From Chrysomallon squamiferum (Eukaryota > Animalia > Mollusca), in contig CM022677.1 in NCBI GenBank assembly GCA_012295275.1, positions 23,870,001 through 23,934,000 of the forward strand: a stretch of 64,000 bases of DNA, read 5' to 3'. The first letter of the stretch is position 1; each line of letters starts with the position of its first letter. Under the pieces are notes generated by a model. That model did not search any database. It had not been told where the DNA came from and saw only the letters and a list, made by a program, of their open reading frames with translations. This document shows, in pieces, positions 3-60,742 of this stretch. A program made the position numbers and the translations under genes.

Positions 3-105
3 TTTGCATATATGTAACATGCCGTTACCAAGACAACCACAACAAGTGCATTTGCAATCAGAATAATATAAGATGGAGAATCCTTCTGACGAGTGTACAC
101 AGATT
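3..105 (-). CDS. Gene A transmembrane exon
   Basis: ttcaag|AATCTG... reads KSVYTRQKDSPSYIILIANALVVVVLVTACYIYA and ends AA|gt at the window edge (phase 2). 103 nt, same length and phases as the gene B TM exon. Confidence 0.8.
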
Positions 106-3100
106 CTTGAAAGAAGAAGCATTAATAAACTAGTTTTAGCAATAAAACACAAGCATGTGTGCACGCACAGAAACACACATGAAAACATTATAAATAAATA
201 AATATGTCAAAATTGTAATTCAACACGCACACATAATTTATTTAAGTATGTATATTTATGTGTTTGGGAATACATATACACACATGCACATATAATAAAT
301 ATATCAAAATCGTAATACAATATGCACATATAAATAAATAAATATATCAACATCATAATACAATTTATTTAAGTATGTATATTTACATATACTTGCAAGG
401 CAATTTATTTAAATTTGTATTTTATTTATGTGTTTGGGATTCCATACATATTTTTACACCATGTGACACATATAATAAATGAATAAATATATCAAATCAT
501 AACATACCATAATAACGTAAAATGCATGTATTTAAGTATATAGCCTTGTATCATAAATAGTGTTTGGGAATACATGGAGACCTACATATTTAGCCGTTCT
601 ATGGTTTAAAAATTTGTTGGTAGTGGACATTAAATCAATATTATTTCAACAAATTCTTTTACAATTAAACAAGTTTTTGTTTATTTAGGACCGATATTTA
701 GTGCATATTTTCCTAGATCATTGTAGACACCGTGCGGCATAACGCCGTTTGGTTTTCTCGCTTTAAAATGTATTTTTATGTCATTAAATAAATATATTTG
801 GTTTTGTTATTTAAAAAAATGTTTTATACAACAAAATTTATTTTTTGAAAAGCTGAAAGACCGCGATATTTTAGATGTTTCCCGTATATAAAAATATATA
901 TATATATTCAGCAACACACAAAAGCACATATAATAAAAAAATAACTAATATAGTCTCCCAAAAATTCGACTTATACACAAGTATATACGGTTTGTGTTTG
1001 GGTATATATATATATATATATATATGCACACATTATAAATAAATAAATATATCAAAATCGTAATACAGCAGACATTTATTTGCTGTTGTTTGTCTTACTA
1101 CACATGTCTCCTGTACATGGCTGGTAAGTCAGTAAAGTTGTGTTTCCCGCACAGTCGTCACCCCCAGCTGATGGGCTGGGATTTGTGCAGCTTCTGTTCA
1201 GTTCCACTGATTGATTACAGGACACCAGGCAGGCAGCAGTTTTGACCGTCTCCCAGGGCGACCACTGACCATCAACTTAAAACAGACAGATAAACTGTAC
1301 GTAAGTAAAATAAATAGGTAAAAAATAGGTAAGTAGGGAAATAAATAAATAAACAGAAAAAGAATAAAAATTTGTAATACTACTATTGTCATTATAATCG
1401 TAGTCATCATTATTATAATTATCACTATAAGTGTCATTGTTATTATTATAATTATTATTATTATTATTATTATTATTTTATTGTTGTTATTATCATTATG
1501 ATTATTATTTTATACATACTGGCTATACTTCATTATATGATTCACTATAATGGGAAATGCCACAATACATTACAATTTTACAACATATGACAGTTACAAA
1601 GTATTACAATCAGAACATGGCCATTACAAAGTATAATTACAATATACTACCACATGATACACACAAAATATTAAAATTACAACATGACATTTACAAAGTA
1701 TTATAATAACAGCATTACAACATATGACAGTTACAAAGGTATTATAATTACAACATAGGACACATGGTACCTTGACTTACAAGTTTAATTTGTTTCATGC
1801 CCGAGCTCAATTTGCACCTATATCAAATCAATTTTCCCAGCTGAAATTAATTGAAATACCATTAATCCATTCCAGACCCCCAAACCACCACATTGTTTTT
1901 GTAAGAAAAATGTATTTATAAATGACATATATTGTATAAAAAAAAAAAAACTATATAAAAGAGAATGTAAAGAAATAAATTAGTTTTGTAAATTTATTTT
2001 GGAGATGAGACAAACTATTTTAATGCCTTTGGCTGGAGTTACAGCCTTTATCAACTCCTTCTGTGTCAGTACGGTACATATCATAGAAGTACTAAGCTTG
2101 TACTGTCACACTTAAGTTTTTCTATGATTTAATGCTTTTATTCAATGGACATCACCCGCTTCTTCTTCTCAGCACTGTCCTCTGCACACACTTTCTTAGG
2201 ATCCATGGTCAGAAAAAAGAAATTTGGCAAAACGCTGCACAACACAAGAGATGCTTCAATGGCGAGGTAACCATGTGAAGTAAATGAGGGAGACATGGGA
2301 GTTGGCATGGATGTTGTGTTGTTCATTGCGCCAACTAGTGGCAGTGTTTCTGAAGTTTGCTTGTAACTCAGATTTTGGCTCACAACTCAAAGAAGAATAT
2401 CGACCAATGCAACTGCTTGTAACTTGGAAAACTTGTAAGCTGGTGCACATGTAAGTCAAGGTACCATTGTTTTATAATTACAACATTACAACATATGACA
2501 CTTACAAAAGTATTATAATTACAACATAGGACCATTACAAAGTATCACAATAATAACATGACAGAATAAAAAGTGTTACAATCACAATATATGAAAACAA
2601 GACAATTAGAAAGTATTACTATTACAACATAATATAACAAACTGCAATTACAACACACCACAGTGACAATCACAATATATTCCAAATCATTCCCATTGCC
2701 TGGAACTGTTCAAAAAAAAGAAAAAACCTGTGTTAAAGATTAGTAGAAACTGCTTTGATTTACCACACAGCTGGCCTTTGCAAGGCACAGTGATTATGGT
2801 GACATCATCTCCTTGGCAATACTGCCCATCACCCTGGGGAGGAGGGTTGGTACAGGTTCTCATCATGGTCACTCTGTGAACACAAATATCATGACATGCA
2901 TCAGCATATGTCTTAAACCAGGAGGTCCACTGTCCATTTACTGAAAGTTGAAACAGCAACGTCAGTATCATTTTTAGCAACAGTTTAGCCATCTTGCTAA
3001 CACTAGTGGATGTGGTATTAGTGATCAGCATTATTATTATTATTATTATTATTAATACTAATACTAGTTCTAGCAGTACTTATAATAATTTAATAAACAT

Positions 3101-59200: not shown

Positions 59201-60742
59201 CTCTATTTTTCTATCCGTCTTTCAGTATATTTATCTATCTATCTCTGACCCTGTCTGTCTTTGTCTTTGTGTTGTAGTTGATGGTCAGTGGACATCGTGG
59301 ACTGTGCAAAGCGCCACTAAGTGTGGACCTGCCTGTGTCCTGGGAGTGTTGTCCACCAGGACGTGTACTAATCCGCCTCCGTCACAGGGAGGAAAGCAGT
59401 GCGAGGGCAACCAGTCTAGAAACTCCACAAACAAATGTGTTAACACGAAGTGTGGTAGAGTGGACATTTATTTATTTATTTGTTTATTTATTTGTTTATT
59501 TATTTATTTATTTATTTATTTATTATTATTATTATTGTTGTTGTTGTTGTTGTTGTTGTTATTGTTGTTATTATTATTGTTGTTGTTGTTATTTTTGTTA
59601 TTATTATTGTTATTATTGTTATTATTATTATTATTATTATTATTATATTAATTATTAATGTTATTGTTATTATTATTATTACTATTACTATTGTCATTAT
59701 TATTATTATTATTTTATTATTGTTATTGTTATTATTAGTATTATTGTTATTATTATTATTATTATTATTATTATTATTATTATTTATTATTGTTGTTGTT
59801 GTTGTTGTTGATATTATTATTATTTACTGTATTTAATATTATTCTTACATGAAATGATAATGTTTATTTATCACTGTAACTTTTGTTATTATTATTACTG
59901 TTATTGTTATTACCAGTGTCGTTGTTGTGCTAGTATAAATCTAAATAAAACGATTATTTATGTTCTAGGAACATGATAAACCTGGGTCTTCTTACTCATC
60001 TTTGGTGATCCTGGGAACTTTGTCTGGTGTCTTCGCTGTTGTTTTAGTCATTTACTTCGTCTCTAGGTGAATATATTATCAGTTAATTCGTTCATTCATT
60101 ACTGGTACTGCTACTGTTATTTTTTTTGTTATGTTATTATTATAAAACAGAGTTAATAAATGGCTTAGGAATGACGATTAGTCGGTTAAGATATATTTTT
60201 TTTTTTTTTTTCAAGGCACGGCTATATTAACTGAAAGAACAATGTGTGACCCAAATAATTTACTGATGGTTAGATGTTTTTTGTTGTTTTTACAACAACA
60301 ACAGCAACAACAACAGCAATAATAATAATAAGTTAATGAATAAGATTTGTATTCACTAACTTTATAGAAGGATTGGTGTCGGCATTTCTTCTTACTATCA
60401 TTACTGTAGCTGTTGTTATTGCTGTTGTTGCTGTTACTGTTACTACTGCTACTACTACTACTACTACTACTACTACTACTACTACTACTATTTTAATACA
60501 GAACAAAATCACAAAGCAGAGAAAGAGACGAGGAAGAAAACGCGTCACGAAAGCGAATCAACAGCATAAAGAACGTTCTGGCGAGTGACGTCCTCAATCC
60601 CGCCTTCTCCAGCTCCGGTGAGGACATCAAGTCCATATTCAGTGGGTCAGGCAGAGGGCTCAGCGTGTCATCGATAAAAGACATGATATCGAACGTGTTT
60701 CCCAAACGAAAACCCTCAAGTCTCGATGTCACAATGGAATAG
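41299..60742 (+). CDS. Gene C: type I membrane protein, signal peptide + 20 TSP1 repeats + TM + tail; frame anomalies in TSR6 and TM exons (possible pseudogene/allele or assembly errors)
   Basis: Exons 41299-41341 ([14 protein letters not shown]); TSRs 42079-42252 (GC donor), 43114-43290, 44011-44190, 44619-44795, 45390-45560, 46111-46292 (182 nt, -1 frameshift), 47786-47980, 48355-48525, 49471-49641, 50296-50493, 52776-52940, 53203-53373, 53855-54010, 54600-54773, 55556-55753, 56206-56412, 56810-57004, 57551-57769, 58689-58865, 59278-59454; TM 59969-60066; tail 60502-60742 (TAG). Confidence 0.82.
42330..42508 (-). mobile_element. Possible tRNA-derived SINE fragment in a gene C intron
   Basis: ~180-bp GC-richer island between (TATG)n tracts. 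The minus strand begins GTGGTCTCG... and has a Pol III B-box-like GTTCGAGTC about 40 nt later. Confidence 0.45.
43834..43850 (+). promoter_or_regulatory. CTCF core-motif match
   Basis: CGACCACCAGAGGGCGT matches the CCASYAGRKGGCR consensus, in a small GC-richer island of the gene C intron before the TSR3 exon. Confidence 0.4.
46600..47620. repeat. 46-bp minisatellite, ~20 copies, with a homogeneous core
   Basis: Unit gtatttcagcgaacaactgacagtaataaatatacacgtaatatta; near-identical from ~46900 to 47560 with decayed flanks. Confidence 0.95.
50498..52440. repeat. ~1.9-kb compound (ACT)n satellite with higher-order variants (tactagaactactgctactattac)
   Basis: Direct inspection; starts right after the gene C TSR10 donor. 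Confidence 0.95.
57775..58490. repeat. 25-bp minisatellite, ~28 copies
   Basis: Unit aaaacgtatcagttatttgtgtaat, starting just after the gene C TSR18 donor. Confidence 0.92.
59969..60066 (+). CDS. Gene C transmembrane exon
   Basis: ttctag|GAACATGATAAA... reads [32 protein letters not shown] and ends AG|gtgaat. In frame only with a phase-0 entry. Confidence 0.75.
60502..60742 (+). CDS. Gene C cytoplasmic tail exon
   Basis: atacag|A ACA AAA... reads [79 protein letters not shown]. Confidence 0.8.

What the first reader, a model, noticed from the sequence alone, without database searches (positions are those of the whole stretch)
3..60742. Cluster of three diverged, length-locked 20xTSR single-pass receptors: candidate cell-recognition system
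Seen: three paralogs share one architecture (signal peptide, exactly 20 TSP1 repeats, TM, tail; no other domain) and are collinear repeat-for-repeat, but the surface residues between the W/C/R scaffold differ heavily. Known: described multi-TSR proteins (SCO-spondin, hemicentin, ADAMTS, properdin, semaphorin-5, BAI, UNC5, THSD7) have other domains or other repeat types/counts. A TSR is ~5 nm long, so 20 give a rod of up to ~100 nm. Inference: fixed ectodomain length with divergent surfaces in a clustered family resembles the design of Hydractinia Alr allorecognition genes, clustered protocadherins and gamete-recognition proteins, here on a TSR scaffold. I do not recognise a named family, but I cannot verify novelty without searches.
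Basis: partly seen in the sequence, partly recalled or inferred. Interest (0 to 1): 0.85.

Follow-up and report, generated by a model that had tools for sequence, protein, structure and literature searches.

The report
Three 20-repeat thrombospondin surface receptors
Three neighbouring genes, likely from a marine snail, each encode a predicted cell-surface protein made of exactly 20 thrombospondin repeats in the same order; they likely act as long adhesion or microbe-binding tethers, and the part of one gene compared across samples is conserved rather than hypervariable like self/non-self recognition genes.

Summary
Three paralogues (A minus, B and C plus strand) each have a signal peptide, exactly 20 collinear TSRs and one transmembrane exon; A's tail lies outside the window, C has one frameshift and one phase conflict, and one RNA contig confirms one splice junction of B. 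The repeats are a divergent variant: 3 of 59 exons pass Pfam's cut-off. The allorecognition reading is not supported: B exons T1-T6 show 16 synonymous versus 4 non-synonymous variants (pN/pS 0.07), and the 35% identity between paralogues comes with near-saturated silent sites, so age explains it. The architecture has precedents (THSD7A, 21 TSRs; the 'TSR+TM' class of sea slugs and anemones), but this is not THSD7. One repeat subtype occurs in 18 of 312 fetched proteins, all from the vent snail Gigantopelta aegis, mostly unstudied 3-11-repeat membrane proteins on one scaffold. No collinear 20-repeat orthologue was found. Best reading (0.5): long, basic, glycosylated tethers that bind glycans, matrix or microbes and are recycled through an NPAF tail motif. 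A role in symbiont capture is open (0.2). Verdict: new variant of a known kind, interest 0.42.

The parts
3..19781 (-). Gene A: signal peptide, 20 TSRs, TM; 1258 aa open up to the window edge, tail outside the window
   Evidence: (no stop in the spliced model)
19327..19781 (-). Gene A start: inferred 5-nt ATG exon (19781-19777) and signal-peptide exon (19385-19327)
   Evidence: inferred from phase and splice sites
1099..18429 (-). Gene A TSR array, 19 exons: 18429-18259, 17366-17202, 16817-16641, 15967-15614 (T4+T5), 15001-14819, 14239-14042, 13101-12934, 11865-11695, 10777-10586, 9586-9425, 9083-8913, 8446-8288, 7297-7127, 6656-6459, 5828-5622, 4962-4768, 3751-3539, 2940-2764, 1275-1099
3..105 (-). 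Gene A transmembrane exon
   Evidence: mean hydropathy 2.8
21267..38867 (+). Gene B: signal exon 21267-21306, 20 TSR exons, TM exon, tail exon; head-to-head with A
22178..37067 (+). Gene B TSR array, 20 exons starting at 22178, 22769, 23609, 24406, 24890, 25867, 27019, 27822, 28683, 29239, 29689, 30315, 31256, 32228, 33054, 33816, 34697, 35639, 36262, 36894; all with 6 Cys
   Evidence: junction 22936|23609 spanned by RNA contig 24 of run X9
37667..37769 (+). Gene B transmembrane exon
38417..38867 (+). Gene B tail exon (acceptor uncertain: 38393, 38405, 38417, 38465 or 38474), Ser/Lys/Pro-rich, about 130-157 aa, with NSIK...NPAF
   Evidence: no Pfam family above cut-off
41299..60742 (+). Gene C: signal exon 41299-41341, 20 TSR exons, TM exon 59969-60066, tail exon 60502-60742 (79 aa, NSIK...NPAF)
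42079..59454 (+). Gene C TSR array, 20 exons starting at 42079 (GC donor), 43114, 44011, 44619, 45390, 46111, 47786, 48355, 49471, 50296, 52776, 53203, 53855, 54600, 55556, 56206, 56810, 57557, 58689, 59278
46111..46292 (+). C T6 exon, 182 nt, with a 1-nt frameshift at a short G run; both sides keep their Cys, so an assembly error or a recent mutation
19867..19891 (-). Promoter-proximal element upstream of A, matching the one upstream of C at 25 of 26 columns
40899..40924 (+). Promoter-proximal element upstream of C (same element as upstream of A)

Best explanation
These are three old paralogues with 20 collinear TSRs and one transmembrane segment each, predicted to stand as long (about 100 nm) basic, glycosylated rods that likely tether the cell to sulfated glycans, matrix or microbial surfaces and would be recycled through the NPAF motif in their non-catalytic tails. 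Shown: the exon structure, repeat number and order, one TM stretch each, the shared NSIK...NPAF motif in B and C, one spliced junction of B, and purifying selection on B T1-T6. Inferred: TSP1-type disulfides (Cys are lost in the pairs C3+C4 and C2+C6), the rod shape and length (about 5-5.5 nm per TSR, recalled), C-mannosylation of WxxW, ligand class, adaptor binding to NPAF (recalled motif), and that each paralogue serves its own ligand or tissue while staying nearly invariant within the species. The fixed count of 20 is most simply kept because individualised repeats no longer recombine unequally; selection on length is possible but not shown.
For: Anatomy. TSR identity: the profile of 57 repeats matches thrombospondin-1 TSRs at E 7.8e-14 and BAI1 TSR3 at 4.6e-7; the model of Pfam-negative repeat A4 has pLDDT 90-97 over residues 1-50 and its best matches are TSR chains, though weak (Foldseek E 0.15 or more, VIA Z at most 3.9); the model of G. 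aegis relative P0036 matches properdin and thrombospondin-1 at E 4e-12 to 1.5e-4. K+R 159-168 versus D+E 92-112, 13-24 N-glycan sequons, 6-7 CxxS/TCxxG sites; WxxW in 56 of 60 repeats. WxxW-type motifs of TSRs are described as protein and glycosaminoglycan binding sites (PMC7663992, passages). Purifying selection. Relatives with the same repeat subtype are TSR+TM proteins of G. aegis, 7 of 9 loci on one scaffold with a TM after the last repeat; P0114 also has NPVF in its tail. THSD7A shows that a TSR-only single-pass protein of this size exists.
Against: No ligand, tissue or localisation data exist for these genes. The canonical WxxWxxW and RxRxR motifs are in 0 of 60 repeats and CxVTCG only 3-5 times per protein, so known TSR binding sites are not simply conserved. 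NPAF is short and could be chance; A's tail was not seen. Fold matches for the window's own repeat are below significance, and only one repeat was modelled well. RNA support is one 163-nt contig at depth 4.2. C may be a pseudogene.
Confidence: 0.5

Rival explanations
1. Symbiont or microbe capture receptors: the family expanded in chemosymbiotic vent snails and binds bacterial surfaces before uptake. This is a specific form of the best explanation.
For: The short-strand repeat subtype occurs in 18 of 312 fetched proteins, all G. aegis. In that snail 5 of 26 'coadhesin-like' genes are on the list of genes highly expressed in the symbiont-housing oesophageal gland, log2FC 6.3-9.9, two of them in a five-gene tandem cluster (PMC7895826 supplements). 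Blocking TSRs cut symbiont colonisation in an anemone (PMC5446238, passages). The one RNA run holding gene B is labelled metatranscriptomic.
Against: 5 of 26 versus a background of 1,782 of 21,438 gives p=0.06; 21 of 26 are not on the list. Those gene ids could not be mapped to the proteins that carry the subtype. G. aegis is the only neomphaline seen among the named hits, so the restriction may be a sampling effect. The host of the window is not established.
Confidence: 0.2
2. A paralogue code for cell-cell recognition (protocadherin-like): each paralogue binds itself or a matched partner in trans across a gap of fixed width, invariant within the species.
For: Equal ectodomain length and order; position-specific identity outside the scaffold (21.5% versus 14.4%); the membrane-distal repeat T1 is the most divergent of the 20 positions (24%). 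Low polymorphism is compatible.
Against: Only three genes seen, each with its own promoter region, TM and tail exons (tails seen for B and C); no shared constant exons. No gradient of divergence along the rod (Spearman 0.18, p=0.43). A net basic surface disfavours homophilic contact (inference).
Confidence: 0.12
3. Alr-like allorecognition or gamete-recognition locus under diversifying selection.
For: Clustered type I membrane paralogues with one exon per domain. In B, 2 of 4 variants in T1 are non-synonymous versus 2 of 16 in T3-T6 (p=0.16). Only 6 of 60 repeats and 4 runs were tested, and alleles under 85% identity would not have been laid.
Against: pN/pS 0.07, in each of the 4 runs more synonymous than non-synonymous variants. 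Alr2 has 183 protein variants in one population and sites under positive selection (PMC8282982, passages). Silent sites between paralogues are near saturation.
Confidence: 0.08
4. Structural spacers or matrix anchors (glycocalyx, mantle or shell-forming epithelium) with no selective ligand.
For: TSP_1 domains are common in lophotrochozoan shell matrix proteomes (PMC13425148, passages); heavy predicted glycosylation; low sequence constraint outside the scaffold.
Against: Strong purifying selection on amino acids within the species, position-specific conservation, and a conserved tail motif suggest more than a spacer.
Confidence: 0.1

Closest known systems
Gigantopelta aegis 'coadhesin-like' / 'hemicentin-1-like' RefSeq proteins (for example XP_041356405, XP_041355826, XP_041356393, XP_041356563; automatic names, no study found)
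   Same: Same TSR variant (about 7 residues between the second Trp and C1, 9 between C2 and C3, 11 between C4 and C5); mostly signal peptide + TSRs + TM + short tail; at least 9 loci on one 40.8-Mb scaffold.
   Different: 3-11 repeats, not 20; many have homogenised repeats; by the strict patterns none mixes both repeat classes as the window genes do (P0019 does by a looser pattern); no collinear orthologue.
THSD7A/THSD7B
   Same: Single-pass protein whose ectodomain is only TSRs (21), with a short tail (PMC8523383, passages).
   Different: THSD7A mixes THBS1-like and F-spondin/C6-like repeats; here 0 of 59 Trp-bearing repeats has a Cys before the Trp motif, the count is 20, and the THSD7A d1_d2 structure scores only Z 2.1.
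'TSR + TM' and TSR-only classes of sacoglossan slugs and anthozoans; properdin
   Same: TSR-only architecture with or without TM, proposed as pattern-recognition proteins (PMC7663992, PMC5446238; passages).
   Different: Those are bioinformatic bins of Pfam-detectable TSRs. The window's repeats mostly escape Pfam (3 of 59 pass). Properdin is secreted and has 6 repeats.
Hydractinia Alr1/Alr2
   Same: Linked type I membrane genes, one exon per extracellular domain.
   Different: Ig-like domains (PMC9546547, search listing), extreme polymorphism and allele-specific homophilic binding; here TSRs under purifying selection in the part tested.
Mollusc 'SCO-spondin-like' long TSR arrays (G. aegis XP_041369425, Haliotis, Ostrea)
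   Same: 15-50 tandem TSRs of the long-strand variant; top profile hits.
   Different: Extra domains or no long tail, homogenised repeats (43-80% within protein), and only 27-32% identity in several offset registers, so not collinear.

Membership tests
TSR (TSP1) superfamily | WxxW, six Cys and Arg layer per repeat | tested here: met
   57 of 60 repeats have 6 Cys, 56 of 60 WxxW; W, C and R columns at least 90% conserved
TSR (TSP1) superfamily | Profile or fold match to solved TSRs | tested here: met
   Profile E 7.8e-14 to thrombospondin-1. Weak for single repeats: 3 of 59 exons pass the Pfam cut-off, 20 of 59 have a TSP-type hit at E up to 1; fold matches Z at most 3.9
THSD7A/B | TSR-only ectodomain, single TM, short tail | tested here: met
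   definition from PMC8523383
THSD7A/B | 21 TSRs including F-spondin/C6-like repeats | tested here: not met
   20 repeats; no Cys before the Trp motif in 59 of 59 Trp-bearing repeats (that this marks the F-spondin type is recalled)
Hydractinia Alr | Ig-like ectodomain | tested here: not met
   only TSR exons found; no Ig family in the Pfam scan
Hydractinia Alr | Extreme non-synonymous polymorphism | tested here: not met
   B T1-T6 only, 4 runs: 16 synonymous, 4 non-synonymous
Hydractinia Alr | Allele-specific trans-homophilic binding | not testable with these tools
   needs aggregation assays
Clustered protocadherins | Cadherin repeats; variable exons spliced to shared constant exons (recalled) | tested here: not met
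   no cadherin domain; B and C each have their own TM and tail exons
G. aegis-type TSR+TM group | Short-strand TSR subtype | tested here: met
   6-7 repeats per window gene by the strict pattern; otherwise only in G. aegis proteins, 18 of 312
G. aegis-type TSR+TM group | One clade with, or one-to-one orthology to, those proteins | tested here: inconclusive
   quick tree of 154 repeats mostly unresolved, 89 of 151 inner branches open; best single-repeat matches up to 52%
SCO-spondin, hemicentin, ADAMTS, coral coadhesin | Additional domains (vWD/LDLa, Ig/EGF, metalloprotease, F5/8C/vWA; recalled) | tested here: not met
   the ectodomains are filled by 20 TSRs; no domain-like phase 1-1 exon in introns
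Properdin-like secreted TSR-only proteins | No transmembrane segment | tested here: not met
   one TM stretch in each model

The most novel reading that the evidence does not exclude
An undescribed, largely Pfam-invisible family of TSR receptors expanded in vent snails, whose 20-repeat members reach about 100 nm beyond the glycocalyx to capture and internalise the chemosynthetic symbiont, each paralogue reading a different bacterial or host surface.
Probability: 0.2. Interest if true: 0.75.

Novelty: new variant of a known kind. Interest (0 to 1): 0.42.

Why it matters
Surveys of TSR proteins in symbiotic molluscs and cnidarians rely on Pfam, which misses 56 of 59 of these exons at its cut-off and lists no domain for the G. 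aegis relative P0036, so a whole receptor family is being overlooked or misnamed. If it is tied to the symbiont-housing organ, it gives testable candidates for how vent snails pick up their bacteria. If not, it is still a clean case of a long repeat array frozen in number and order across three old duplications while its relatives expand and contract.

Tried and rejected
No whole genome is held, so flanking copies and A's tail could not be sought. Word-seeded searches were weak: exon A4+5 found nothing and the repeat profile only two coral proteins without TM. No collinear 20-repeat orthologue among the best 150 of 1,254 profile hits; the other 1,104 were not seen. The repeat tree did not finish its careful search and is mostly unresolved; up to 4 repeats per outside protein from 24 proteins were used. 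A5 was not modelled (pLDDT under 50) because the alignment covered only A4. THSD7A was absent from the 7 PDB sequences matched by the profile, which alone excludes nothing. A swap of repeats 13 and 16 in B was considered; scores do not decide it. A hidden mucin exon in C's intron 10 (Thr-rich frame 50486-52240) has no fitting splice sites. Rfam: 0 matches. A homodimer prediction for B T1 was not run because the queue was full. Earlier scan findings: none in three look-ups. Literature: ten searches gave no description of this family; two returned nothing. The main texts of PMC7895826 and PMC7736800 have no occurrence of thrombospondin, TSP, coadhesin or hemicentin. One supplementary PDF of PMC7895826 was too large to read, the supplements of PMC7736800 were not searched, those of the bioRxiv preprint are closed, and most subscription journals are outside the library. 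Reads were laid only on B's first seven exons, so C's two defects and all of A are untested.
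Full report
The window is AT-rich animal DNA (30% G+C, 272 tandem-repeat rows). No whole genome is held. Splice-site and phase analysis gave three genes. A runs on the minus strand from 19781 to the window edge, B on the plus strand 21267-38867, head-to-head with A, and C on the plus strand 41299-60742. Each has a signal exon, 20 TSRs in phase 1-1 exons (A4 and A5 share an exon) and a TM exon. 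A six-frame profile scan found 60 matches inside the models, one half-copy of A14 and four negligible matches. A's model is open for 1258 aa; its tail is outside the window. B and C have Ser-rich tails that share NSIK...NPAF. C has a 1-nt frameshift in T6 and a phase conflict before its TM exon that a weaker donor five bases downstream, or one extra base in the assembly, would explain.

The repeats are TSRs of a divergent kind. Only 3 of 59 exon translations pass Pfam's TSP_1 cut-off and 20 of 59 have any TSP-type hit at E up to 1. A profile of 57 repeats matches thrombospondin-1 at E 7.8e-14. The model of Pfam-negative A4 is confident over its first 50 residues and its best structural matches are TSRs, although none is significant alone. 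Cys are lost only in pairs: C3+C4 in A7, C2+C6 in A17 and C17, as the TSP1 disulfide pattern predicts (recalled). About 7 residues separate the second Trp from C1, against 2 in canonical TSRs, and 55 of 57 six-Cys repeats have 11 residues between C4 and C5.

Collinearity is real. Same-position scores exceeded all 100,000 shuffles for each pair and all 20,000 within-class shuffles. Same-position repeats were the best match at only 7, 12 and 8 of 20 positions, so single repeats are weakly individual. Ectodomains align end to end at 35-37% with no gap above 13 residues. Scaffold columns are 83.5% identical and the rest 21.5%, against 14.4% for different positions of the same class. A and C share the class string at 20 of 20 positions, the four-Cys T17 and a 26-base promoter element, yet all three pairs are equally distant and fourfold sites match at 0.34 against 0.26 by chance. 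The duplications are therefore old, and age suffices to explain the divergent surfaces.

Nine public runs of one coded organism, from three studies, hold part of gene B. Four were laid on B's first seven exons. A 163-nt RNA contig joins T2 to T3 exactly at the predicted sites. Of 50 variants 40 were listed, 20 of them exonic: 16 synonymous and 4 non-synonymous, pN/pS 0.07, at worst 0.23 if all 10 unlisted ones were non-synonymous. Alr2, by contrast, has 183 protein variants in one population (PMC8282982, passages). Limits: 6 of 60 repeats, assembled contigs, an 85% identity floor, and patchy cover. T1 is the most divergent position between paralogues and holds 2 of the 4 amino-acid variants (p=0.16), a hint only.

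Relatives. The profile matched 1,254 library proteins; the best 150 were examined. The top ones are mollusc 'SCO-spondin-like' arrays at 27-32% in several offset registers, so no collinear orthologue. The short-strand subtype, 6-7 repeats per window gene, occurs in 18 of 312 fetched proteins, all Gigantopelta aegis, a neomphaline gastropod. They make 10 loci, 9 on one 40.8-Mb scaffold as judged from the shared contig length and adjacent accessions; 7 of those 9 have a TM after 3-8 repeats. This suggests that the window comes from a related gastropod; it is not proven. Among 24 comparison proteins 18 have repeats 43-80% alike, including all those with 9 or more repeats, whereas the window's repeats are 28-30% alike. 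The family's length is thus labile where repeats are homogenised and fixed where they are individualised, which offers a neutral reason for the constant 20.

Known kinds. THSD7A has 21 TSRs, one TM and a short tail (PMC8523383, passages) but includes F-spondin-type repeats, absent here. 'TSR + TM' is a named bin in sacoglossan slugs (PMC7663992, passages); TSR-only proteins, one with a TM, are expanded in anthozoans, where blocking TSRs cut symbiont colonisation (PMC5446238, passages); TSRs are induced during colonisation in a giant clam (10.1101/2024.02.04.577604, passages). The G. aegis hologenome paper does not mention TSRs in its main text. Its supplements list 26 'coadhesin-like' genes, five in tandem on one contig, and 5 of the 26 among the 1,782 genes highly expressed in the symbiont-housing gland (I took the file to be Supplementary Data 2 from its order and columns); p=0.06. 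Three genes of that tandem have syntenic partners in a second peltospirid. None of these ids could be tied to the proteins with the subtype or to this window. Ten searches found no description of the family.

Mechanism. The most likely reading (0.5) is a set of long, basic, glycosylated surface tethers that bind glycans, matrix or microbes, differ between paralogues in ligand or tissue, stay nearly invariant within the species, and are sorted or internalised through the NPAF tail. Rivals: symbiont capture specifically (0.2), a paralogue code for cell-cell recognition (0.12), a plain structural spacer (0.1), polymorphic allorecognition or gamete recognition (0.08). Structure, order, one splice and purifying selection in part of B are shown; shape, ligand and cell function are inferred.

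Verdict: a real and apparently undescribed variant of the TSR-only membrane protein class, worth following in vent-snail biology, but not the hypervariable recognition system proposed. Interest 0.42.

Noticed in passing
window 1764-2467: Element with 21-nt inverted ends (95% complementary) in A's intron 19, flanked by a 64-nt direct repeat; it holds a broken reading frame starting MDPKK, like a Tigger/pogo transposon remnant (name recalled).
   Followed up: partly
window 7213-7465: 127-nt tandem duplication (97%) covering the acceptor and first half of exon A14; the upstream copy could splice as an in-frame 81-nt half repeat with 2 Cys, or is an assembly artefact.
   Followed up: partly
window 15614-15967: A4 and A5 lie in one exon while B and C have an intron between them: a precise intron loss or gain without change in repeat count.
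   Followed up: no
window 50486-52240: 1.7-kb triplet-derived run in C's intron 10, open as a 584-codon Thr-rich frame on the gene's strand; a similar 1-kb run lies in A's intron 8 (11942-12938). No fitting splice sites.
   Followed up: partly
window 40553-40562: A second copy of the CGCCATGTT core of the promoter element, pointing away from gene C; possible divergent promoter with no gene found behind it.
   Followed up: no
P0047 (G. aegis XP_041355607): vWA domain + 6 TSRs of the same subtype + TM + Tyr-bearing tail, an architecture like apicomplexan TRAP adhesins.
   Followed up: no
P0004 cluster (G. aegis XP_041369423-35): Twelve annotated isoforms with 15-22 TSRs and a C-terminal hydrophobic end with almost no tail, suggesting splice-tuned rod length and a possible GPI anchor.
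   Followed up: no
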